From the NCBI GenBank assembly GCA_000004985.1, contig GG738850.1: DNA of 64,000 bases. One strand, 5' to 3'. Below, piece after piece: positions 4,490 to 55,900 of this stretch. Source of the DNA: Naegleria gruberi (taxonomy: Eukaryota). The first letter of the stretch is position 1; every line of letters begins with the position of its first letter. The notes beneath the pieces are model-generated. The model did not search any database and was not told the origin of the DNA. It saw only the letters and a program-made list of their open reading frames with translations. Position numbers and translations under genes: made by a program.

Positions 4490-4562
4490 GCCGACATAGC
4501 TCAGTTGGGAGAGCGTAAGACTGAAGATCTTAAGGTCCCTGGTTCGATCCCTGGTGTCGGCA
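4490..4562 (+). tRNA. tRNA-Phe (anticodon GAA)
   Basis: 73-nt cloverleaf GCCGACATAGCTCAGTTGGGAGAGCGTAAGACTGAAGATCTTAAGGTCCCTGGTTCGATCCCTGGTGTCGGCA. The acceptor GCCGACA pairs with TGTCGGC. Anticodon loop is CTGAAGA, T-loop is GGTTCGATCC, there is no encoded CCA, and a T-run follows. Confidence 0.9.
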
Positions 4563-8227: not shown

Positions 8228-8308
8228 CGCGGTCTACAGGACTCGAACCTGTGCGGGTCTCCCCAATTGATTTCTAGTCAATCACCTTAACCACTCGGTC
8301 AAGACCGC
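8228..8308 (-). tRNA. tRNA-Ser (anticodon AGA), long variable arm
   Basis: The reverse complement reads GCGGTCTTGACCGAGTGGTTAAGGTGATTGACTAGAAATCAATTGGGGAGACCCGCACAGGTTCGAGTCCTGTAGACCGCG (81 nt). It aligns position-for-position with canonical eukaryotic tRNA-Ser(AGA): D-arm GCCGAGTGGTTAAGG, anticodon stem-loop ATTGA-CTAGAAA-TCAAT, long variable arm. Confidence 0.85.
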
Positions 8309-32957: not shown

Positions 32958-34241
32958 TTATTCTAAACCTGAAATAATGTACTGAATCTTATCAATCTTA
33001 TTCTGATATTCCTCTTGCATTTTGTTTGACCTATCAAAAAATACCTGTTTCTCATCATTACTCATCCTGTTCCAACAATTTGCAACGATCGTTGCTTGGT
33101 TTGATAATGAAATATTTGGATTTTCTGACACCACCTCCATTCTTTTCTGTTGAGAGAACAACATGTATGGAGAGGGAACTCTTTTCACTGTACGCTTCTT
33201 AAAGAATAGCAAGATTGAGGGCAAGAGTCCACACAGAACCTCTTCAAATGTTTTCCTCTCTGCAGAGGTACTACATGGAGGAAGGAAGATGGAAACTCTG
33301 CTTGAGGTGCTGAAGGAATTATCAATGACATTGAATAGAAATGTGCTTCCCAGACAAACTATTGTGTGAATAGATGAGAGAATGTAAGGTAAACCAGAAT
33401 CATGGAAGATTACAATTCTTCCCGAGTTAATTTTGATGGAATTGGTTAATAATTTGGAAAATTTCAATTTTTTCAAAATGGAATTCAATTTTTCAATTTG
33501 TGATCGAGTTAAAGGTTCCAATAATTTTTCAATAATTTCAAAAAGTGGTACTGTATCAGATGAATTGGTGTGTGGGAAATGGGTTCTCCTTTCCATTAGT
33601 GCAGTAAGTATCAGAAACTTTCGATGAAAATTATTCTTCCAGAGCAGATTAGTTTTGATTCTAATTTCATTTTCAAAACATTTCACACAACTTAGTGCCT
33701 CTAAAGGTTTAACCTCCTCAATACCTTTTTTCCATTGCTCAACATCATTTTCAATAGTTTGTGAAAAATTAAATTTCATCGAGTCAAGCTCTTCAAATTC
33801 ATGACCATTTACATCATTGATGAAAGGAGTAGAAACACAAAACGAATGTTCGAAATAAAACTTGGCAAATTCTGTACCAGATATAAACCGATACCAACCC
33901 TTACAAACCATCATCAAACAAGCACAACTGTTACAATAATTCGGATGAAAAACTTCCATCGGTCTTAAATAGAGGAAAATATTTGCCAATATTAAATCTT
34001 GATCAAACCATTCGCAAGTTATTGTTATTTGATTAGCATTATCAACTTTCTGAAAATCATCATGTTGATCATGATCGGAAGAATTGCCCAAGTTTCGAAT
34101 AATTTCCTTCGTATTTTCACGTTGTTTGGAAATAAAGTTTTGATGAGAGGTGATTTGCTTCTTGTCAAGTGGTTTCGGTAATTGATTCGTAATTTGCTTG
34201 AGAGAATGTGGATGGATTTGGTGGCGATGATTTTGTGACAT
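32958..34241 (-). CDS. HMG-box DNA-binding protein (SOX/MATA-HMG-like box at the C-terminus), ~427 aa
   Basis: C-terminal box KRVPSPYMLFSQQKRMEVVSENPNISLSNQATIVANCWNRMSNDEKQVFFDRSNKMQEEYQ fits the HMG-box consensus (KRP.NAFMLF...R......P.....IS..LG..W..LS..EK.PY...A). The first real ATG is a few codons inside the track ORF. Confidence 0.7.
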   Translation of the reverse strand: MSQNHRHQIHPHSLKQITNQLPKPLDKKQITSHQNFISKQRENTKEIIRNLGNSSDHDQHDDFQKVDNANQITITCEWFDQDLILANIFLYLRPMEVFHPNYCNSCACLMMVCKGWYRFISGTEFAKFYFEHSFCVSTPFINDVNGHEFEELDSMKFNFSQTIENDVEQWKKGIEEVKPLEALSCVKCFENEIRIKTNLLWKNNFHRKFLILTALMERRTHFPHTNSSDTVPLFEIIEKLLEPLTRSQIEKLNSILKKLKFSKLLTNSIKINSGRIVIFHDSGLPYILSSIHTIVCLGSTFLFNVIDNSFSTSSRVSIFLPPCSTSAERKTFEEVLCGLLPSILLFFKKRTVKRVPSPYMLFSQQKRMEVVSENPNISLSNQATIVANCWNRMSNDEKQVFFDRSNKMQEEYQNKIDKIQYIISGLE

Positions 34242-35059
34242 ATTTTTCAACTTTAAATATTCTATTTTCTGATTACAACGATTGAATTTCCATGAAACTC
34301 TTGACTATTATCGCATTGTTAGTGATAGGTTTCCATTGGAATAGTTTCGTTTCTCATTGAACCAGTTACAACATTTTTCAAATTGATTTACAAATTAATG
34401 ATAAACTTTTGGTTCTATTAAAAAGTTTCGAATAAGGTAAATGAGATGGAACTCTTGTAACTCTCCCTTAAAGAAATTTAAAGTTTCGTTCAACCTAATT
34501 GAACTGTACTTCTTGAATGTAAACTTCCAGAATTGAATTCAAATATCAAACGTTCATTTTCTGAACGATTACTTGATCTGCTTAAGGATAAAGCCATACT
34601 ATTTATTTCCTTCTTTCGTCTCTTTTATTAGAAATGGTATTGATGTAAGAAGGTAATTACTCTTAAAAACCTGCAATTTTACACGTTTTTTCATTTAATA
34701 AAAAAGTGCATTTCCTATTCGAAAGGGTTTCCATCTCTGTTCATTTAGACATTTATTGTAAAATTCCAGAATTATGAACCGAAACTTTTAAAGTAAGGAA
34801 GAAAGGAAAAAGACGAAACTCCTCTCGAATTGAACGTTCTAACGAGGTACTTTTTTATACTTCTTTCTTATTGGGACCCCCTGAAATTATCTATCATTCC
34901 AAATGGATCTAATTAGGTTTGTGTGTTTCAACATCTTTTTTCTAAATTGATCCAAACTTCATTCGTTTCGTTTCGAATATTAAAAACTTTCGTTTTAAAT
35001 ATAAACAGACTTTGAATTAAAAAAAGAGAACAAACAGCCACCGTTTCGTGTTTTTAGAA

Positions 35060-35938: not shown

Positions 35939-36078
35939 ATATTGTCCTTCAAAATTAAACTGTATTATTAAGCCAGAGAAAATCTCTTTGAATGTTCTAA
36001 TCGAAACAAATCCCAAATGTCAGCCAATGTGGAATAGCTTCTAGGTACATTAATTACCTTAACCTTAATCATTCATCA

Positions 36079-36167
36079 GGGTGGTTAGCTCAGCGGTAGA
36101 GCACCGGATTGCAAAGTTAATTGCAGCAGACATCCGATGGTCACGTGTTCGATCCACGTACCACCCT
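36079..36167 (+). tRNA. tRNA-Cys (anticodon GCA) with a ~17-nt intron 3' of the anticodon
   Basis: GGGTGGT-TA-GCTCAGCGGTAGAGC-A-CCGGA-TTGCAA[AGTTAATTGCAGCAGAC]A-TCCGA-TGGTC-ACGTG-TTCGATC-CACGT-ACCACCC-T. The acceptor and T arms are perfect. The anticodon loop TTGCAAA gives GCA. The insert at canonical position 37/38 contains TGC complementary to the anticodon, which is typical of nuclear tRNA introns. An oligo-T terminator follows. One C:A mismatch in the anticodon stem. Confidence 0.7.
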
Positions 36168-36570
36168 ACCTTTTACCTTCTTTTGAGTTATAAGAAATTG
36201 TTAATTCTTCTTTTGAGTGTTCTTTTAACTTGTATTGAAAAAAAGCTCGTTCAAGATAAAGAGTGAATGATCTTCATTAAATTCTTATTGATAAATTAAC
36301 TGTGAGAATGGTATTATTTGGGTTAGCTTGGTGATTAATCAGAAAGGTGGCATTTCATGAATGTTTACAATATTACAAAGACAGTCTCAGAATTCTAAAA
36401 TAGAACTCAAATTGTTGTTTGTTACAAAAGACACTAATCTCTTGATTGGTTCTTCGGTGAGAAAACAAGGATTTTTGTGTCTCTTGGCAGACACAACCTT
36501 TATAAATATCCAACCTTGTAGCATAGCAATTTTAAAAAACAAAGCGAAACCTTTCCATCAATAACAAAGA

Positions 36571-37314
36571 ATGGTAAAATCAGATCAACCTACCGCACCA
36601 ACTGGCACACGTTGTAAAACATGTGTTTGTGGAGAAACAGGGTGCGAACATATCAAGCAATTGAGAAAAATGACTGGTAAAGGGAAACCATATATCAAAA
36701 GCTTTAATGAAAAGATCCAACGTTTAATAACATTAGAAATGAAGGACGAATTTGAGAAGTTTTTAAAGGGAGAATTGACAAAAATCAACTTGGATTCTCT
36801 CAAGCCAAAGACTGGAAAAGAATACGAACTTGGTATTAAAGTTGAATTTTATGATGTCATTGAAGTGAAGTGGAAGAAAACTATTCAAACATGTGACAAC
36901 TCTAACTCAAGTATTGGATCAAGTGCTAATCCACTCCGTTCTCCACAAACAGGTAATGATATCTTAAATTTTTTTGAAGAAGCCAATGAAGACAACATGT
37001 CAGATTCATCAGTCAACCTTGATGAAATGAATGAATCTCAAACAATCCATTCACAGCCTAAATATAAGTGTATGGTAGATACTCCAGAAAGTTTGCAAAT
37101 GATCTGTCTATCTGATATTGAATTGAGAAGCTATTCCAATTTAAAAACACGTTTGAGTGAAAAGTTCTCATGTACTGTTGGTAGCATCTATTTCAAATAT
37201 CAACAGGATCGTAAAAAGTGCCTGTTGGAAGATGATAGAGATTTAATGGATTTATTTAGTCGTGAATTAATAAAGAGTCAAAAGGATTGGGAAAACTTTA
37301 TAATTTCCATTTGA
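36571..37314 (+). CDS. Hypothetical protein (247 aa) with an N-terminal Cys cluster (CKTCVCGETGCEH) and a possible PB1-like C-terminus. It lies between the two tRNA-Cys copies.
   Basis: Real ATG at 36571. The weak C-terminal acidic/basic pattern KYKCMVDTPESLQMICLSDIELRSYSNLKTRLSEKF...YFKYQQDRKKCLLEDDRDLMDLF recalls a PB1 fold. Weak. Confidence 0.4.
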   Translation: MVKSDQPTAPTGTRCKTCVCGETGCEHIKQLRKMTGKGKPYIKSFNEKIQRLITLEMKDEFEKFLKGELTKINLDSLKPKTGKEYELGIKVEFYDVIEVKWKKTIQTCDNSNSSIGSSANPLRSPQTGNDILNFFEEANEDNMSDSSVNLDEMNESQTIHSQPKYKCMVDTPESLQMICLSDIELRSYSNLKTRLSEKFSCTVGSIYFKYQQDRKKCLLEDDRDLMDLFSRELIKSQKDWENFIISI

Positions 37315-37365
37315 TTTTGGATTAAAAATTAATAATTTCTTATAACTCAAAAGAAGGTAAAAGGA

Positions 37366-37454
37366 AGGGTGGTACGTGGATCGAACACGTGACCATCGGA
37401 TGTCTGCTGCAAATATCTTTGCAATCCGGTGCTCTACCGCTGAGCTAACCACCC
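37366..37454 (-). tRNA. tRNA-Cys (anticodon GCA), second intron-containing copy in inverted orientation
   Basis: Its reverse complement is identical to the 36079 copy except in the intron (AGATATTTGCAGCAGAC versus AGTTAATTGCAGCAGAC). Confidence 0.7.
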
Positions 37455-37529
37455 TGTTGTGGTGTTAAGAATTAAGACGATCACTGCAGTACCCTACATA
37501 CTAAGGCTATACAAAACTCCACCATAATA

Positions 37530-38378
37530 ATGAGTGCTTTGTTTTGGGTTGAGTTCAAACAAACTTTACAAAAAAATGAAGCAACACACAATGATGAACA
37601 ATCTAAACAACATTCCAACGAGTTGAGAATGGATCATGACGATGCACTAAAGAGACTCAATGTTCAATCATTAGAAAAGTTAAAAATTGCCAATCAGCAA
37701 CATTCCGATCAGCAAATTAATGATGAAAATTCTTCATCGTTTATGATGGAAATTAATTCTGATCCTCATCAGGACGGAATTAAATTACAAATAATTAAAG
37801 GGAGTATTGTCGATCTGCCAATATATATCGATACTATTGTGAATGCTGCTAATGAAAGTTTGATGGGAGGAGGTGGAATTGATCAAATTATTCATGCTAG
37901 AGCTGGTGATGAGCTCAAATTGGAATGTAAAACTAAATATTCTCCATCTTGTCTGAAAATGAAAGGTTCCATTACCTATGGAAATGATGAATTGGAATAT
38001 AGATGTGCCACTGGAGAGGCTGTCATTACTCAAGCACATAATTTGAGTGAGAAATGTCAATATATTATTCATACAGTTGGACCATATTTGGATGAAAATG
38101 GAAATACTCAACCAGAACTATTATCAAACTGTTACAATTCATGTTTACAGTTAGCTATGGAAAATAATCTGAAATCTATTGCATTTCCTTGCATTAGTAC
38201 TGGATATTATGGTTATCCAATCGAAGAAGCTTGTAGACTAGCTCTAAAAATAGTCAAAAACTTTCTTCATTCACATCTGAATAAGCAATCATCTTTGAGG
38301 CATATCATTTTTGTAATTTTCAATGATTTGGAGTTTGAAATTTACAAAATTTTATTTCAAACCATTTCGTCTTTGTGA
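37530..38378 (+). CDS. Macro domain protein (MacroD/ADP-ribose-binding or -hydrolase type), 282 aa
   Basis: Real ATG. Macro signature IVNAANESLMGGGGIDQIIHARAG...GEAVITQAHNL...IIHTVGPY...SIAFPCISTGYYGYP matches the Macro consensus (NAAN..L.GGGGV..AIH..AG.....G.A..T.......VIHTVGP.....S.AFP.ISTG..G.P). Confidence 0.75.
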   Translation: MSALFWVEFKQTLQKNEATHNDEQSKQHSNELRMDHDDALKRLNVQSLEKLKIANQQHSDQQINDENSSSFMMEINSDPHQDGIKLQIIKGSIVDLPIYIDTIVNAANESLMGGGGIDQIIHARAGDELKLECKTKYSPSCLKMKGSITYGNDELEYRCATGEAVITQAHNLSEKCQYIIHTVGPYLDENGNTQPELLSNCYNSCLQLAMENNLKSIAFPCISTGYYGYPIEEACRLALKIVKNFLHSHLNKQSSLRHIIFVIFNDLEFEIYKILFQTISSL

Positions 38379-39547: not shown

Positions 39548-41149
39548 ATGCAAAACTCCAAGTCGAGGAGTTTCATCTCCGTCTTTGCTTTCATCTTGGT
39601 GATGACATTATTTACCAGCAGCAACAATCAAGTATTAGCCAATAATAATAATATTAAACTTGCTGGCTCACCAAAGCACGTCTATCAAGTTGGAGAACCT
39701 GAATTTTGGTTCCATCAACGTATCGATCACTTTAATGCATTGAACACTGATACTTTCCCACAACGTTATTACAAGTTTGTTCCGGAGGGAGTTTCAGCAT
39801 CATCACCTAATCACTTGTTGTACATTTGTCCTGAGGCTACTTGTGGAGGAACACCAAATAATTATGTGAAAAATTATGCTATGGAATTGAAGGCTACAAT
39901 TTATACTTTGGAACATCGTTTTTATGGTAAATCAGGTATGTTTTTCAATGATGATGATGATGATATATTAATTTATAATGTTGAATATTTATTAATTTAT
40001 TGGATAATATTGGAAATTTGATGAATGAATTAATGTGGAATAATGTGTGAAATTGTATGAATAATTGGAATAGTTCCTTACAAATCAATGAAGACTGTTA
40101 ATATGGCCAATTATTTAAAGACAGAAATGGCATTGGCTGACTTGTCAGTCTTTATTGAATATATTGCAACATTGCCATCAGATAATAATACTCCTCATCA
40201 ATTTATTATTGTTGGATGTAGTTATCCAGGTGCATTGAGTGCATTCTTCTCTATGAAATATCCACATCTTGTCAAGGGTGCCTTGTCATCATCTGGTGTT
40301 GTCAACTCTATTTTGGACTTTTATACTTTTGATATGCATGTTCAACAAGCTGCTGGTCCTGAATGTACTGCTCTCTTGACTCGTGCTACTTCTATTATGG
40401 AAAAGATGAATCCAACCAATTTGTTGAGAGATTTCCAAGCTCCAGCAGATATGGATATTAGAGATTTGTTCCTTCTTTTTGGTGATATTGCTGGTGAAAG
40501 CGTTCAATATGGATATCATTATGAATTGTGTAATGCCATGAAGAGTGGTAACACTAATTTGGATGAAGTTATTTATCAAAATTTCCACAATTATTCTCTT
40601 AATTTTTTCTACAAGGTATTCGAAACCTCACCATTGGATTATTACAATGGAGCTATTGGTAATGATAATTATGATCCTTCACAAGGAGCTAATGGTGGCA
40701 GATCTTGGTGGTTGCAAACCTGTTCTGAACTCTCCTATTTCAATACTGCCCCACCAAAGAATTTGCCATCCATTAGAAGTAGATGGTTGGATTTGGACTA
40801 TTTCTATGACAAGTGCAAAAAGATCTTTGGATATCCAATTAAACCAAACACTGACTTTGTCAATAACCAATATGGTGCCAAGCAATTGTTGAATACCACT
40901 ACAGGAAGAACTGTCTTTGTCAATGGTAGCCAAGATCCTTGGCTTAGAGCTGGTGTTGATATTGATCCAAAGAAATTCAGTTTCTTGATTGAATGCAACA
41001 ATTGTGGACATTGTGTTGACTTGAGAGGTTGTCCAAGTTGGGCTCAAAATCAAGAAATCAATTATAAGTGTGTTGAAAATGGTAATGAACAAGTTGCAAA
41101 GATTAGACAACAAACTTTAGCAATTATGAAAGTTTGGTTCCACATGTAA
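39548..41149 (+). CDS. Serine carboxypeptidase of family S28 (lysosomal Pro-X carboxypeptidase/PRCP-like), secreted. Two exons, approximately 39548..39935 and 40074..41149.
   Basis: Signal peptide MQNSKSRSFISVFAFILVMTLFTSS. S28 motifs FHQRIDHFN, FPQRYYKF, LEHRFYGKS|VPY (138-nt intron GTATGT...AATAG, phase 1), YLKTEMALADLSVFIEY, and the catalytic-Ser motif GCSYPGALSAFFSMKYPHLV. Confidence 0.75.
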
Positions 41150-42417: not shown

Positions 42418-42880
42418 TTTTTTTTAAAGTTTTTTTAATTTTTTAGTTTTTTTTAGATTTTGATTTTTGAGGATTTTGTGTGAAATGCAAAATCAAAGAA
42501 CTGCTTACTGATTTTTGAGGAGGATTTTCAAGGAAAATTATTCAATTTCACAAAACGAGTGTTCCTTACTGAGGAGAATTGTAAAGTGGTGAGAGAAATG
42601 GATTTGAATTAGTAACACGGTGGAAGCAGTACTCCCAATGATGGTCTTTGATGTCATGGTGAATATTAATCTGCTAAACGTGTGATGATTTCTGTCTTTG
42701 TAAGGTTGGTTGACCAATCAAACCAATCAAACGAAGGTTAGGAACCTAAAAAATAATATAAATAGAACAAGCAGTTTCTCTTGAACGTGACGAAAATCAA
42801 AAAAAAACAACAATTTTCTCTGATCATCATCACACTTTAAAAGATTCTAATAATCCTCATCAAATTAATAATACTTGACA

Positions 42881-43957
42881 ATGATTCTTTCTACTACCTC
42901 TGATAATAATAGTACCATCAACACTGCTGTTGAAACTAATCAACAACAAAAAGAAGAAGAAGAGGCCAATCTATTCGAATTGTTTAACCTTTCTCCAAAT
43001 GTTTACACTTTCTCTCCTTCTGAAATGGATGATGCTTTCCGTTACATTTTCGGTGATGATTTGAGTGTTGTTACAGAAAGTACAAACTCCTCAGCAGAAG
43101 AGGAACAACTTTCTACAGAAAATGTTGACATTTCCAAGTCAACTTCTTTAAATGATAAGAAAGAAATGAATGAATCCATGGTGAGTGAAGAGGTGGATCA
43201 ACAGTCATTGATACGTGAGTCTGGTATGGGAATTGGTGTTAGTAAACCTCCACCATTGACAAGTAGAGAGAATATTCCACAATTTCAATATTTGATCCCA
43301 AACCAAGGTATTGACATTCATCCTTTACAACATGTGAATGAATGCATGACACAAGTCAACCAAGAATCCAATGCTAAAAAGAGAAAAAATAACACTTCCG
43401 TTGGTGATAATGCAAAGAAACTGAAATGTACTTTACCATATTTAGAATTAAGTTCTCTAGAACTAAAGGAATCAGCTCCTTCAAATTCAGATGACATAAT
43501 GTACGATTTTACTACCAATCATCCCAAGATCCGTGAGAAACTTTATATTAAGGTTTCATCTCCATGTGAATTGGTTCTGGATACATACTGGTCAATGAAT
43601 ATTACTGAAAACCCAAAAGAACTTGGGAAATTTACTCTTTCATTTGAGAAAGTGGGTACTTATAATGCGACAACATTGAAATCACATTTAGTTTCTGAAA
43701 TGCCTAAATTAGAAAGTGAATCGACTAAGAAAAATGCACATGTCTTATTCCATTTGAAGATTGGTTCACATGTATTTCATATTCATTCCAAAGGAAAAAT
43801 GAAAAAGAAAGGAAATACTTCATTACCAAGTGTAATTGTATTAGATGTCAATAATCAAAGTGCCACTCTTGAATTAGCTCCACAATCTAAAACTGGAAAG
43901 AGAGGCAATTTTCAAAGTGGGAATTATCCTTCCATCAAATTCAAATCAGCTCAATGA
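42881..43957 (+). CDS. Hypothetical protein (~358 aa)
   Basis: ORF with an ATG at ~42881. Acidic N-terminal region and no recognisable domain. Confidence 0.35.
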   Translation: MILSTTSDNNSTINTAVETNQQQKEEEEANLFELFNLSPNVYTFSPSEMDDAFRYIFGDDLSVVTESTNSSAEEEQLSTENVDISKSTSLNDKKEMNESMVSEEVDQQSLIRESGMGIGVSKPPPLTSRENIPQFQYLIPNQGIDIHPLQHVNECMTQVNQESNAKKRKNNTSVGDNAKKLKCTLPYLELSSLELKESAPSNSDDIMYDFTTNHPKIREKLYIKVSSPCELVLDTYWSMNITENPKELGKFTLSFEKVGTYNATTLKSHLVSEMPKLESESTKKNAHVLFHLKIGSHVFHIHSKGKMKKKGNTSLPSVIVLDVNNQSATLELAPQSKTGKRGNFQSGNYPSIKFKSAQ

Positions 43958-44213: not shown

Positions 44214-44415
44214 CATTTCGGTTTGTTAGATTTTTATTTTTTATTTTTACTTTTTATTTTTTATTTTTATTATTTTTATGATTTGATATTGGGNNNNNNN
44301 NNNNNNNNNNNNNNNNNNNNNNNNNNNNNNNNNNNNNNNNNNNTATAAATGGGCATGTGCCGTGCCAATATCAAATCATAAAAATCATAAAAATATAAAA
44401 ATAAAAAATAAAAAT
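44214..44415. repeat. Imperfect palindrome / inverted AT-rich minisatellite (ATTTTTATTTTT units) flanking the gap
   Basis: The left arm ...ggtttgttagatttttattttttatttttactttttattttttatttttattatttttatgatttgatattggg is the near reverse complement of the right arm ccaatatcaaatcataaaaatcataaaaatataaaaataaaaaataaaaatctgg..caaacc. Confidence 0.7.
44294..44343. other. Assembly gap (50 N)
   Basis: A run of exactly 50 N. It sits at the centre of a palindromic minisatellite (see the next repeat feature). Confidence 0.95.
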
Positions 44416-44619
44416 CTGGTTACAGATTGGCAAACCCCCATCAGTCAGAGAAAGAAGCCTCAGCTTGGCGAGAGTCTCCACCAGCAGAAACACTACTCAG
44501 CCATTGTTTCCAAATATGAACATTCCTAATTCAAAAGAATCAGAACTAAAGTATCAAAAGTGAGCTCAATAATCCAGGCCAACTCGTTTATTACCTGCCT
44601 GAATACTACTTTCAATAAA

Positions 44620-45327
44620 TTACAACTTTGAATTAATCGACATTACTCCAATATAGGAACACAAGTGTCCAATAATTGGATTCTTAATATTCACCTCCAC
44701 GTACCATGAATTTGTTGGACGTGAATTCTTATCAAAAACACAAATGGAGTGACCACTAGGATCAATGGAAAGTAAGCGAGGTAATGGAATGAATCCAAAG
44801 AGATACATCTTTTTGAATTGATGTTCAAATCCAACAATTTCATATGGTGCATTTTCATAACCTTCCAAATCATTCCTATAAATGGGAACTAATTTAAATC
44901 CAAATGAAAATATTCCAAAACTTTCAATGACCAAATCATCCTTTATCGACCATTTTGAAGTCAATGCTTCTCCATCAAATGTTCTCTTCCAATAATTATC
45001 TTCAATTTTCACAATCACTTGAGCTCCTTCATTCTCCTTTGGAAGACCTCCAAGAGTGGCAAATAATTGTGAAATAAATGTTTCACCTCTGATGACTTGT
45101 AAACTACCTGTGGCAATACTCTTCTCCGGATCATTTGCTATTCCTCTGTGAAAATCTACAAAGTAAGGAGGAAGCTTTTCAATCACTTCCTTTCCGAGAC
45201 CAAATTGCAATGGATCATCATTCTTTGATTGTTGTTGGAGGAGTGATGAAGTGGAAAAGAATCTTTTTGTTGATAAAAGATTACACGATTGTTTAATGAA
45301 CTGTGGGCCAGTTACAAGTTTTCTCAT
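44620..45327 (-). CDS. Hypothetical protein (235 aa) with an N-terminus resembling a mitochondrial presequence
   Basis: Real ATG. MRKLVTGPQFIKQSCNLLSTKRFFSTSSLL is basic, hydroxylated and lacks acidic residues. Confidence 0.35.
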   Translation of the reverse strand: MRKLVTGPQFIKQSCNLLSTKRFFSTSSLLQQQSKNDDPLQFGLGKEVIEKLPPYFVDFHRGIANDPEKSIATGSLQVIRGETFISQLFATLGGLPKENEGAQVIVKIEDNYWKRTFDGEALTSKWSIKDDLVIESFGIFSFGFKLVPIYRNDLEGYENAPYEIVGFEHQFKKMYLFGFIPLPRLLSIDPSGHSICVFDKNSRPTNSWYVEVNIKNPIIGHLCSYIGVMSINSKL

Positions 45328-52994: not shown

Positions 52995-55900
52995 CTACCA
53001 GAAAAGGAAACTGAAATTAAGCTTTCTAATAACCCACTTTCTCATTTCATCATAAAAAATCATCAAAAACATCCAAGGAATTGGATACAACCAAAAGTCA
53101 ATAATCATAAATCTCGTATTGAAAATATAATCTCCAATGAATGGAACATAAATTAAAATCACCAACAAGCAAGCAGAATAGATTAATCCAAAATAGGTCA
53201 TTAAATTACCCAATAATCCATGTGTGAAAATGCTCAATCGACGAGTTTTGCAACTGAATAGAGTGGCCCATTGACAAATGACAATTGTCATGAAAAATGC
53301 TGTTTGTGCAGTGCATAGAACGTTATGTTGATACATCTTATCCAAATACATTCCAGTTTCTTCAATGTAAAGCTTTTTATCCGAATTGATATCGAAATAA
53401 TCCTTGCTAGTTGCTTCCCAAAGATATTTTGGTGGAATTCCATAATAAGCAAAGACTAGGAAGTAATTTGTAAAGCATGCAAGAGTTTCAATTACTCCCA
53501 TTTGGAGATAGGAAAAGATTAATAAGGAAGAGCTTACTAGTGGTTGATTCTTGGTACGAGGTGGAATGCTCATAATGTCAGATTCGGCTGTTTCGTAGGC
53601 GAGACTGACTGCACTGATGAGCTCCTTTTTAAGATTTTAAATTTGATATATTTGGATAATATAAAAATTGATAAATTAAGAATTTTCCAAATAAGTAAAA
53701 CTTACAGTTCCCAAATCAACACACAAAATCAATAAACCTGTAATTGGAAGAGGCATGCTAAATACAATAAAAACTAAATAAGGGAAAATTTCTGCAGATA
53801 AATGTGAAACAGTATAAGCAATTGACTTTTTCAAATTGTCAAAAATCAATCTGCCTTCCTTAATACCATTCACAATCGAAGCAAAGTTATCATCCAACAA
53901 GATTATAGCAGCTGCTTCTTTAGAAACAGCACTTCCTGAAATATTCATAGCCACACCTACATCTGCCTTCTTTAGAGCAGGTGAATCATTAGTTCCATCT
54001 CCTGTCACAGCGACACAATGCCCCAATTCTTGGAATTTTGTAACGATAATCAATTTTTGTTGAGGTGAAGTTCTGGCAAAGACAATTTGCTTCTTTTTAA
54101 GAATTTGTTTCCATTCCTTAGATGTCAACTTGTCAATTTCTTCTCCGTGTAAAACAATGGCATCAGCTCTACTGTATGGAATGGTTTTTGGATCACAACT
54201 TTCTTCCTCTGCGATATCGTCAATGGTTCTGGCGTCTGATTCGATAATTCCAACTTGTTTGGCTATGGCTTTGGCTGTGGCTGGGTGATCTCCTGTGACC
54301 ATGACTACTTGAATTCCTGCTTTCTTACATTGTCCAATACATTCAGGAACTCCTACTTTTGGAGGATCAGTCAATCCAGCCATTCCCAAAAAGCAAAGAC
54401 CTTCCATTGGAATGGATTGAGCAATTTGATCAGAAGTTTGTCCAGATTTCTCAATTCTTAATTGTTCCTCAACCAAATGTTCATCAATGAAAAGTTGGGC
54501 AAAACCCAAAACTCTCTCACCCTTAGAAGCAAAGAAATCATAGGCGTCCTTAAAATTTTGTTTCCAATTATCGTCCAATGGTAAAGTTTGTGAGCCAACT
54601 CTGATGTGTGAACAACGTTGAATGATTCTCTCTGGGGCTCCTTTCATGAGCAACAAAACTTTGGAATCAGTACTGGCACTGTCAGTGGTATTGGTAGTCC
54701 ACTGAGGGAGGTGATTATTCTTTCTAATACTTAACATCCACTTGTTTTTAGAATTGAATGGAATGGAATAAAGTTCAGTATAATCAGAACGAAACTCTTC
54801 AATGGTAGCACAATCAGTTCTTGTCTGAATGAATTTAACTAAAGCTGTCTCACTAGCATCTCCTTCACATTCTCTGTCCAAAATTGGTTTTCTCAAATTG
54901 TCTTCCTCTGGCACGAAATAAGTTTTCGAGCAGAGAGCTGAACATCTTCTCAACATTTGATCAGTTGTCAATTGTTCTTCACCTTCTTTTGAGTAACTTG
55001 TTAATGGAGTTAAGGTGCTTGGCTTTTGGGTCATGTATCTGTCTTGGTAATCTACAGAAGAAACTCTTCCATCTACCCATAGCTCAACAACTGTCATTCT
55101 GTTTTGTGTCAAAGTTCCTGTCTTGTCACTACAAATAACTGATGTACTGCCAAGTGTCTCAACATGCTCAAGCTTTTTAACGAGGACATTCACTGCCTTT
55201 AGACGTTTAGCACTGACTGTTAAGCAGACAGTTACTGTAGGAATCAATCCTTGTGGAATGTTAGAAATGATTATACCAATAGCAAATAAAAAATTAGTGA
55301 ACCAACTGTTTCCAATAGCAAATCCTAAACAGAAGAAAATAATGGCCATTGTGAAGGCCAGAACAGCAATCTTTCTAACAAAACTGTCAATTTCTCTTCT
55401 GAGTGGAGTTTTCTTTTCAGTTGAAGCTCCTGCCAATAAAGCAATTTGACCAATGACAGTTTGATTTCCACATCTAATTACGATACCATAACCACTTCCT
55501 TCCAAAGCCAAAGTTCCAAAGAATACCAAATTATTTGTTTCCAAAGGATTCTTTGAAGTCATTTCCACACTCCTTGATTGAGGTTCAGTTTCTCCTGTCA
55601 AGGAAGCATTATCAAGTTTTAGTTGTGAACAAGAAACCACACGTAAATCAGCTGGAATTTTATCACCACCCTCAATTCTAACCAAATCACCCAAAACCAA
55701 TTCTTCAACTGGAATTTTTTGTGGAATTCCATCACGAATCACCATACAGCTGTCACTTTGCATTTGTTGAAAACTCTGCAAAACCTTCTCACTCGATCTT
55801 TCCTGAACCAATGTAATGGTAGCATTCATAATCACAATAAACCACAAGATGACACCCAGAAATATATTCGGATAGGATTCAGTTGTTCTCTCAATGGCAA

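What the first reader, a model, noticed from the sequence alone, without database searches (positions are those of the whole stretch)
36079..37454. Convergent inverted pair of intron-containing tRNA-Cys(GCA) genes bracketing a 1.1-kb gene-bearing segment
Two near-identical tRNA-Cys genes sit in inverted orientation with ~135-bp identical arms (tRNA plus 45-nt trailer). Each has a 17-nt insert at the canonical 37/38 intron position that contains TGC complementary to the anticodon. The two intron copies have diverged (AGTTAATTGCAGCAGAC versus AGATATTTGCAGCAGAC), while the exons and trailers have not. Between them lies a 247-aa Cys-cluster ORF. This is either a palindromic segmental duplication of a pol III unit or a tRNA-bounded cassette. 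Introns in tRNA-Cys are uncommon in most eukaryotes.
Basis: seen in the sequence. Interest (0 to 1): 0.55.

Follow-up and report, generated by a model that had tools for sequence, protein, structure and literature searches.

The report
Inverted tRNA-Cys gene pair in Naegleria
Two working copies of an intron-containing cysteine tRNA gene of the amoeba Naegleria gruberi face each other across an ordinary-looking orphan protein gene; this is a small local gene duplication in a tRNA-gene-rich genome, with no sign of a mobile cassette.

Summary
The window is Naegleria gruberi nuclear DNA. Two tRNA-Cys(GCA) genes lie convergently at 36079-36167 (+) and 37366-37454 (-). Each scores 54.7 bits on Rfam tRNA, and ARAGORN in intron mode places a 17-nt intron at 37/38 in both. 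They sit in 136-nt inverted arms that are 96% complementary, the only long repeat in the 64 kb.

The arms are not identical. Exons match 72/72, introns 15/17 and trailers 39/42, and similarity stops at about -5 and +42. Both intron differences fall in the loop of the anticodon-intron helix.

The enclosed 247-aa ORF has host-like codon usage. It has no homologue among 1.84 billion representative proteins, no Pfam domain and no transposase. There are no target-site duplications and no further copies in the window.

Best reading: a short DNA-level inverted duplication of one Pol III tRNA unit, with both copies kept functional. The genome is reported to carry 924 tDNAs with an excess of same-type pairs. 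The mobile or invertible cassette idea is unsupported. Orthology could not be tested: the N. lovaniensis locus of the neighbouring Macro gene shows no synteny and no tRNA. Low interest.

The parts
36074..36209 (+). Left arm of the inverted repeat: 5-nt leader, tRNA gene and 42-nt trailer
   Evidence: the repeat finder pair I1, 136 nt, 96% complementary. Alignment A1 and the per-segment identity counts define the boundaries.
36079..36167 (+). tRNA-Cys(GCA) copy 1. Exon 1 is 36079-36114, the intron 36115-36131 (AGTTAATTGCAGCAGAC), exon 2 36132-36167 ending in discriminator U73.
   Evidence: Rfam tRNA 54.7 bits. ARAGORN -i calls Cys(gca) i(38,17). Cloverleaf with anticodon-intron helix, MFE -29.7 kcal/mol. 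A-box-like TAGCTCAGCGGTA and B-box-like GTTCGATCC are read directly from the sequence.
36171..36184 (+). Two T4 runs (36171-36174 and 36181-36184) just after copy 1, the likely Pol III terminators
   Evidence: Read from the sequence. The intron-less tRNA-Ser in the same window is followed by only a T4 run. Terminator function is inferred.
36210..36570 (+). Unique 361-bp spacer upstream of the ORF, the presumed promoter and 5' UTR. It begins with a second direct copy of CTTCTTTTGAGT (36207-36218).
   Evidence: No similarity to the other arm's flank. The in-frame uORF 36361-36564 has a weak coding score of 0.07.
36571..37314 (+). 247-aa orphan protein-coding gene, annotated as predicted protein of Naegleria gruberi
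   Evidence: 100% identity to an NCBI N. gruberi predicted protein, the only hit. phmmer against 1.84 billion representatives finds itself plus one low-complexity hit. No Pfam hit even at E<=10. Codon-usage score is 0.308 per codon in frame, against -0.67 and -0.90 off frame and a host mean of 0.300.
37324..37459 (-). Right arm of the inverted repeat. Its trailer starts 10 nt after the ORF's stop codon.
37366..37454 (-). tRNA-Cys(GCA) copy 2. Exon 1 is 37454-37419, the intron 37418-37402 (AGATATTTGCAGCAGAC), exon 2 37401-37366.
   Evidence: Rfam tRNA 54.7 bits. ARAGORN -i calls Cys(gca) i(38,17). MFE -31.3 kcal/mol.

Best explanation
These are two functional nuclear tRNA-Cys(GCA) genes of Naegleria gruberi.

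**How each gene works.** Each is an autonomous Pol III unit with internal A and B boxes and T4 runs 4-17 nt after the 3' end. Each pre-tRNA carries a 17-nt intron at the canonical 37/38 position. The intron pairs with the anticodon, and would be removed by the tRNA splicing endonuclease and ligase.

**How the pair arose.** A short DNA-level duplication copied about 136 bp in inverted orientation: the tRNA, about 5 nt of leader and 42 nt of trailer. The copy landed about 1.2 kb away, on the far side of a native orphan protein gene. Since then the non-exon positions have drifted (5 differences in 59 nt). The exons have stayed identical under purifying selection, possibly helped by occasional gene conversion between the arms.

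**Relation to the enclosed gene.** The gene between the arms is a bystander, not cargo.

**Shown:** the tRNA identity, the intron position, the extent of the arms, the divergence pattern, and the orphan and native character of the ORF.

**Inferred:** expression, splicing, the duplication mechanism, and the absence of any functional link to the ORF.
For: - **Organism.** N. gruberi, from a 100% protein match.
- **tRNA calls.** Infernal/Rfam and ARAGORN -i, Cys(gca) i(38,17).
- **Sequence features.** U73 discriminator and box A/B-like motifs, read from the sequence.
- **Intron folding.** The intron can pair with the anticodon in two registers. One is the MFE register at -29.7 kcal/mol. The other has a U32.G(-3) anticodon-intron pair and a 3-nt bulge at the 3' splice site, at -27.2 kcal/mol. 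The cloverleaf alone is -23.3 kcal/mol. Both intron differences (i3 and i6) lie in the loop in either register.
- **Divergence pattern.** Exons 0/72 differences against intron plus trailer 5/59. Fisher p=0.017; P(0 exon differences at the non-exon rate)=0.0017.
- **Sharp boundaries.** Identity falls to 24-42% outside -5 and +42. Local-alignment shuffles give p about 0.04 upstream and 0.25 downstream.
- **Genome context.** N. gruberi has 924 tDNAs. Clustered pairs number 77 against 39 expected. Same-isoacceptor pairs comprise 8 parallel and 4 '+ -', against 1.0 and 0.5 expected (PMC2888827, supplement 2).
- **ORF.** Native codon usage and no mobile-element domains.
Against: - No expression or splicing data were available.
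- The rest of the N. gruberi genome could not be searched. I therefore cannot say whether the 136-bp unit, including its trailer, is dispersed elsewhere, which would favour a mobile or retroposed unit.
- The trailer is about as conserved as the intron over 42 nt and runs past two T4 runs. A plain duplication does not explain why the copied unit stops exactly there.
- A marginal shared upstream motif (TTAATT..CTTAAC, p about 0.04) could mean an older, larger duplication kept similar only in the arms by gene conversion.
Confidence: 0.8

Rival explanations
1. This is an older, larger inverted duplication whose arms are kept alike by gene conversion (concerted evolution), not a recent short duplication. 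The flanks have diverged beyond recognition, while the tRNA plus trailer is repeatedly homogenised.
For: A marginal shared motif lies upstream of both copies: CTTAA at -15..-11 in both, and a second CTTAA one nucleotide out of register. Local alignment gives p about 0.04. Exons are perfectly identical while non-exon positions differ.
Against: Identity drops abruptly from about 93-100% to background at both ends. There is no residual similarity downstream or within the interior halves. Purifying selection alone explains the identical exons.
Confidence: 0.25
2. One copy is a retroposed or otherwise re-integrated Pol III read-through precursor, with leader, unspliced intron and trailer up to a downstream T-run. 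This is the kind of event that seeds tRNA-derived SINEs.
For: The repeated unit starts about 5 nt before the mature 5' end, a plausible transcription start. It contains the intron. In copy 2 it ends at a T5 run (AATTTTT).
Against: Two T4 runs lie at +4 and +14. A T4 run appears to suffice for the tRNA-Ser gene in the same window, so a transcript should end well before +42. No A-tail and no target-site duplications flank either arm.
Confidence: 0.08
3. The 1.39-kb unit is a tRNA-bounded mobile or invertible cassette. The tRNA arms would act as terminal inverted repeats for transposition, or as substrates for flip-flop recombination that inverts the orphan gene.
For: 136-nt inverted arms bracket one complete gene, with the right arm starting 10 nt after the stop codon. 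Inverted repeats of this size can recombine; this comes from general knowledge and was not tested.
Against: There are no target-site duplications. The ORF has no transposase or recombinase and no homologues at all. Its codon usage is native. It is a single copy in the window. Scans of viral and metagenome contigs for the tRNA found nothing.
Confidence: 0.04
4. The convergent tDNA pair has a chromatin or replication role for the enclosed gene. It could act as a barrier or insulator, silence the gene through tRNA-gene-mediated silencing, or trap replication forks in a polar way.
For: The only support is analogy with yeast tDNA barrier and fork-pausing activity, from my own knowledge. Geometrically the gene lies within 400 bp of a tDNA on the left and 52 bp on the right.
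Against: There are no data. Compact intergenic spacing is normal for this genome. The arrangement is not seen next to the N. lovaniensis Macro ortholog.
Confidence: 0.05
5. Assembly artefact: a single tRNA-Cys gene was mis-assembled as an inverted duplicate.
For: None, beyond the general risk that repeats pose for assemblies.
Against: The arms differ at 5 positions within the tRNA-plus-trailer unit, and the leader adds one more. Both arms have unique flanks, and an intact annotated gene lies between them.
Confidence: 0.02

Closest known systems
Canonical eukaryotic nuclear intron-containing tRNA genes (for example S. cerevisiae pre-tRNA-Phe and pre-tRNA-Tyr, and human tRNA-Tyr)
   Same: A short intron lies one nucleotide 3' of the anticodon (37/38). 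Part of the intron is complementary to the anticodon. The 3' splice site can sit in a 3-nt bulge closed by a 32:(-3) pair. Promoter boxes are internal and a T-run terminator follows.
   Different: The isoacceptor is Cys. It is not among the intron-containing families of the standard model organisms, which I state from my own knowledge. Splicing was not demonstrated here.
Clustered same-isoacceptor, anti-parallel tDNA pairs catalogued genome-wide (Bermudez-Santana et al. 2010, PMC2888827)
   Same: Two tDNAs of the same amino-acid type lie in + then - order. That survey already counted 4 such pairs in N. gruberi, against 0.5 expected.
   Different: The gap here is 1199 nt, above the survey's 1000-nt cluster cut-off, and it contains a complete protein-coding gene.
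tRNA-associated mobile elements: Dada DNA transposons that target small-RNA genes (PMC3706591), tRNA-targeting retrotransposons, and tRNA-derived SINEs or MITEs
   Same: tRNA sequence lies at the edges of a discrete DNA segment.
   Different: There is no transposase or reverse transcriptase, no target-site duplication, and no multiplicity. Whole intact tRNA genes form the arms, where those elements leave a split target or a degenerate tRNA-like head. I did not read the Dada paper beyond its abstract.
tDNA chromatin barriers (S. cerevisiae HMR tRNA-Thr, S. pombe centromeric tDNAs)
   Same: tDNAs flank a defined chromosomal segment.
   Different: This is an analogy from memory only. There is no evidence of heterochromatin or boundary activity here.

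Membership tests
Eukaryotic nuclear tRNA-Cys(GCA) gene with canonical intron | Cloverleaf that passes a curated tRNA covariance model | tested here: met
   RF00005 at 54.7 bits against a gathering score of 29, model positions 1-71, for both copies
Eukaryotic nuclear tRNA-Cys(GCA) gene with canonical intron | GCA anticodon and U73 discriminator, the main CysRS identity elements | tested here: met
   ARAGORN calls Cys(gca). T at 36167 and at the complement of 37366 follows the acceptor stem. That these are identity elements comes from established knowledge.
Eukaryotic nuclear tRNA-Cys(GCA) gene with canonical intron | Intron between positions 37 and 38, able to pair with the anticodon and to leave the 3' splice site in a bulge | tested here: met
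   ARAGORN i(38,17). Two feasible registers, -29.7 and -27.2 kcal/mol, against -23.3 for the cloverleaf alone. This is in silico only.
Eukaryotic nuclear tRNA-Cys(GCA) gene with canonical intron | Internal A and B boxes and a downstream T-run terminator | tested here: met
   TAGCTCAGCGGTA and GTTCGATCC lie within the gene, and TTTT lies at +4..+7 and +14..+17. These are consensus matches read by eye.
Eukaryotic nuclear tRNA-Cys(GCA) gene with canonical intron | Transcribed, spliced and aminoacylated | not testable with these tools
   No RNA data were available. Exon identity of 72/72 against 5/59 differences elsewhere argues for selection on both copies.
TIR DNA transposon or mobile cassette | Target-site duplication flanking the terminal inverted repeats | tested here: not met
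   The flanks are ...AATCATT(CATCA) and (TGTTG)TGGTGTT..., with no direct repeat.
TIR DNA transposon or mobile cassette | Encoded transposase or recombinase, or membership of a multi-copy non-autonomous family | tested here: not met
   The ORF has no Pfam or PDB hit and no homologues. There are no further copies in the window. The rest of the genome was not searchable.
Retroposed Pol III transcript or nascent tRNA-SINE | Unit bounded by the transcription start and terminator, with an A-rich tail or target-site duplications | tested here: inconclusive
   The 5' boundary at about -5 and, in copy 2, a T5 run at +38..+42 are compatible. But two earlier T4 runs should terminate transcription, and there is no A-tail or TSD.
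Homogeneous anti-parallel tDNA cluster as defined in PMC2888827 | Same isoacceptor family, opposite strands, gap under 1000 nt | tested here: not met
   Same type and + then - order are met. The gap 37366-36167 = 1199 nt exceeds the cut-off.
tDNA insulator or barrier | TFIIIC/Pol III-dependent boundary of a chromatin or expression domain | not testable with these tools
   No chromatin or expression data were available.

The most novel reading that the evidence does not exclude
The convergent tRNA-Cys pair may be a functional module, not a bystander duplication. The 136-bp arms could mediate flip-flop inversion of the orphan gene. A read-through transcript spanning both arms could fold into a long hairpin that feeds the RNAi machinery. 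Or the two head-on Pol III units could act as a polar replication or chromatin trap around the gene. Nothing observed requires any of these. They are merely not excluded, because the rest of the genome, population data and RNA data were out of reach.
Probability: 0.04. Interest if true: 0.6.

Novelty: new member of a known kind. Interest (0 to 1): 0.14.

Why it matters
It matters little. It documents that Naegleria gruberi tRNA-Cys(GCA) genes carry a canonical 17-nt intron, and that tRNA genes in this tDNA-rich genome duplicate as very short units of about 136 bp that can land in inverted orientation around a neighbouring gene. Two practical points follow. tRNA finders run without intron search miss both genes, as default ARAGORN did. 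And the exon versus non-exon divergence gives a small internal example of purifying selection on duplicated tDNAs. If the arms proved to drive inversion or small-RNA production, the locus would become a tidy model, but there is no evidence for that.

Tried and rejected
- **Orthologous locus.** The neighbouring Macro-domain gene has an N. lovaniensis ortholog, P0003, at 52% identity. Its 20.8-kb locus L001 has no tRNA and no other gene shared with the window by tblastn. Synteny is lost, so the single-versus-double question cannot be answered there.
- **N. gruberi proteins in the gene-position index.** P0001 and P0002 are not on record, so no more of this genome could be fetched.
- **Left-hand neighbour.** Searching the HMG-box neighbour returned only two hits, on contigs under 2 kb, which is no use for context.
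- **Public DNA scans for the tRNA-Cys.** Exon patterns with a variable intron gap found nothing in two metagenome scans or one viral scan.
- **Function of the ORF.**
  - Pfam at E<=10 gave nothing.
  - PDB sequences gave only E about 0.5 noise.
  - phmmer against 1.84 billion representatives gave only itself plus a low-complexity hit.
  - A single-sequence AlphaFold2 model had pLDDT 32 and was unusable, so no fold search was run.
- **Rfam at permissive E-value.** No extra RNA was found in or near the cassette.
- **Bacterial-type promoter and terminator scan.** Results were at shuffle level and are irrelevant for a eukaryote.
- **The 14-mer ACCTTCTTTTGAGT at 54981.** It lies inside a 723-aa coding ORF with E=0.044, and I judged it chance.
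- **Dictyostelium genome paper.** I recalled a description of paired tRNA genes and tried to read the paper, but it is not held, so I make no claim from it.

Full report
**What is there**

The window is nuclear DNA of the amoeboflagellate Naegleria gruberi. The ORF at 36571-37314 is 100% identical over its full length to an NCBI 'predicted protein [Naegleria gruberi]' on a 707,703-bp contig. The region is 31-38% G+C with closely packed genes.

The repeat finder reports one inverted pair, 36074-36209 and 37324-37459. It is 136 nt long, 96% complementary, and the arms are 1114 nt apart. This is the only long repeat that is not low-complexity in the whole 64 kb. blastn-short gives E=9e-62 for it.

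**The tRNA genes**

Rfam's tRNA model matches 36079-36167 (+) and 37366-37454 (-) at 54.7 bits each, against a gathering score of 29. The match spans the full model, with a 17-nt insertion in the anticodon loop.

The default ARAGORN run, which does not look for introns, missed both genes. Re-run with intron search, it calls both tRNA-Cys(gca) with a 17-nt intron at 37/38.

Several features can be read directly from the sequence:
- a 7-bp acceptor stem followed by U73, the cysteine discriminator;
- A-box-like TAGCTCAGCGGTA and B-box-like GTTCGATCC;
- T4 runs at +4..+7 and +14..+17 after the 3' end. The intron-less tRNA-Ser in the same window is followed by only a T4 run.

**The intron**

The minimum-free-energy folds keep the cloverleaf and add a helix between the anticodon loop and the intron. 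The intron contains UGCAGCAG, so it can pair with the anticodon in two registers.

| Structure | Energy (kcal/mol, copy 1) |
|---|---|
| Cloverleaf alone | -23.3 |
| MFE register | -29.7 |
| Register with U32.G(-3) pair and 3-nt bulge at the 3' splice site | -27.2 |

The second register is the geometry classically needed by the eukaryotic splicing endonuclease. The two positions that differ between the copies, i3 and i6, lie in the loop in either register. The introns therefore look spliceable in both copies. Splicing itself is inferred.

**Anatomy of the duplication**

| Segment | Identity between the copies |
|---|---|
| Exons | 72/72 |
| Intron | 15/17 |
| Trailer +1..+42 | 39/42 |
| 5 nt before the tRNA | 4/5 |
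| -30..-6 | 10/24 |
| -60..-31 | 7/29 |
| +43..+71 | 10/29 |

Local alignments with shuffling find only a marginal upstream motif (p about 0.04). They find nothing downstream, nothing in the interior, and nothing in the wider exterior. The repeated unit is thus about 136 bp, essentially one Pol III gene with a short tail.

Zero differences in 72 exon positions against five in 59 non-exon positions gives Fisher p=0.017. The probability of no exon change at the non-exon rate is 0.0017. This pattern is what purifying selection on two working genes would produce. It also argues against an assembly artefact.

**The enclosed gene**

The 247-aa ORF has a per-codon usage score of 0.308 in frame, against -0.67 and -0.90 in the other frames. 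Long ORFs of the window average 0.300. The signal is even along its length. It is therefore a native-looking coding sequence.

Its function is unknown:
- no Pfam match even at E<=10;
- no PDB relative;
- no homologue in the 5.8-billion-sequence search;
- none in an exhaustive phmmer search of 1.84 billion representatives, apart from a low-complexity hit;
- a single-sequence structure model that was unusable, at pLDDT 32.

It is about twice as Cys-rich as its neighbours (9 Cys, 3.6% against 1.8%). It has a C-x2-C-x-C-x4-C-x-H cluster near the N-terminus. That is no basis for linking it to tRNA-Cys.

Nothing in it resembles a transposase or recombinase. No target-site duplication flanks the unit or either arm. 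The arm and trailer sequences occur nowhere else in the window.

**Context**

A published survey counted 924 tDNAs in N. gruberi. It found 77 adjacent pairs closer than 1 kb, against 39 expected. Same-type pairs comprised 8 parallel, 4 '+ -' and 0 '- +', against about 1.0, 0.5 and 0.5 expected (PMC2888827, supplement 2).

The present pair has the same '+ -' geometry. Its gap of 1199 nt exceeds that study's 1000-nt cut-off. The same paper concludes that tDNAs relocate on time-scales comparable to neutral sequence divergence. This fits what I found in N. lovaniensis. The ortholog of the adjacent Macro-domain gene (52% identity) sits in a locus with no tRNA within 10 kb either side and no other gene shared with the window.

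More of the N. gruberi genome could not be fetched. Pattern scans of metagenome and viral contigs found no related tRNA-Cys.

**Explanation**

The best-supported reading is a short, DNA-level inverted duplication of one tRNA-Cys gene unit, with both copies kept functional. They happen to lie on either side of a native orphan gene (confidence about 0.8).

The alternatives are weaker:
- **Gene conversion.** It may contribute to the arm identity. The marginal upstream motif hints that the original duplication could have been slightly larger.
- **Retroposition of a read-through precursor.** The 5' boundary and the T5 run at the end of copy 2's trailer are compatible with it. The two earlier T4 runs and the lack of a tail or target-site duplications count against it.
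- **A mobile or invertible cassette, an insulator role, or a hairpin-RNA source.** These remain formally possible but have no positive evidence.

**Comparison and verdict**

The genes meet every sequence-level criterion of canonical intron-containing eukaryotic tRNA genes. The only mildly unusual point is the isoacceptor. From my own knowledge, Cys is not among the intron-bearing families of yeast, human or Arabidopsis, but intron distribution varies widely in protists. I found no paper describing tRNA introns in Naegleria.

This is an ordinary instance of a known kind of feature. It is of low interest unless population or RNA data reveal inversion or small-RNA production.

Noticed in passing
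window 44228-44417: An AT-rich near-palindrome, with arms 44244-44292 and 44365-44413 (49 nt, 86% complementary, 72 nt apart). It lies in the intergenic gap between ORF 42875-43957 (+) and a DUF4166 gene at 44620-45327 (-).
   Followed up: no
window 36177-36188, 36207-36218, 37345-37356 (-), 54981-54994: The 12-mer CTTCTTTTGAGT occurs twice in direct orientation after the left tRNA. The second copy starts essentially where identity between the arms ends. The right trailer has it once. A 14-mer ACCTTCTTTTGAGT also occurs inside a 723-aa minus-strand ORF, with E=0.044, probably by chance. The short direct repeat at the arm boundary is unexplained; it could be microhomology left by the duplication event.
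   Followed up: partly
window 39548-41149: A serine carboxypeptidase S28 gene is split over two ORFs, 39548-40021 and 40088-41149. Pfam PF05577 matches profile positions 1-91 and 85-418 respectively. This implies a short spliceosomal intron of about 66 nt between them.
   Followed up: partly
window 4490-4562 (+) and 8228-8308 (-): tRNA-Phe(GAA) and tRNA-Ser(AGA) genes have no intron. With the Cys pair this gives 4 tDNAs in 64 kb, about three times the genome average implied by 924 tDNAs in 41 Mb.
   Followed up: no
window 36361-36564: A 67-codon ATG ORF lies in the same frame as the 247-aa ORF, separated from it by a single TAA and two codons. Its coding score is only 0.07, so it is probably 5' UTR and not a missed exon.
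   Followed up: partly
window 37530-38378 and locus L001 10001-10846: The gene immediately right of the cassette encodes a Macro-domain protein (PF01661, E=6.6e-39). The NCBI N. gruberi model P0002 is a partial protein of 177 aa that covers 63% of the 282-aa ORF read from the window. The N. lovaniensis ortholog lies in a completely different gene neighbourhood.
   Followed up: partly
window 32958-34250 (-): An HMG-box protein with a weak F-box-like N-terminal region. It has a 97%-identical relative on a 1.8-kb ENA contig and a 52%-identical relative on a Logan contig. This suggests that sequence from a close N. gruberi-complex relative exists in public data, though not for the orphan ORF.
   Followed up: no
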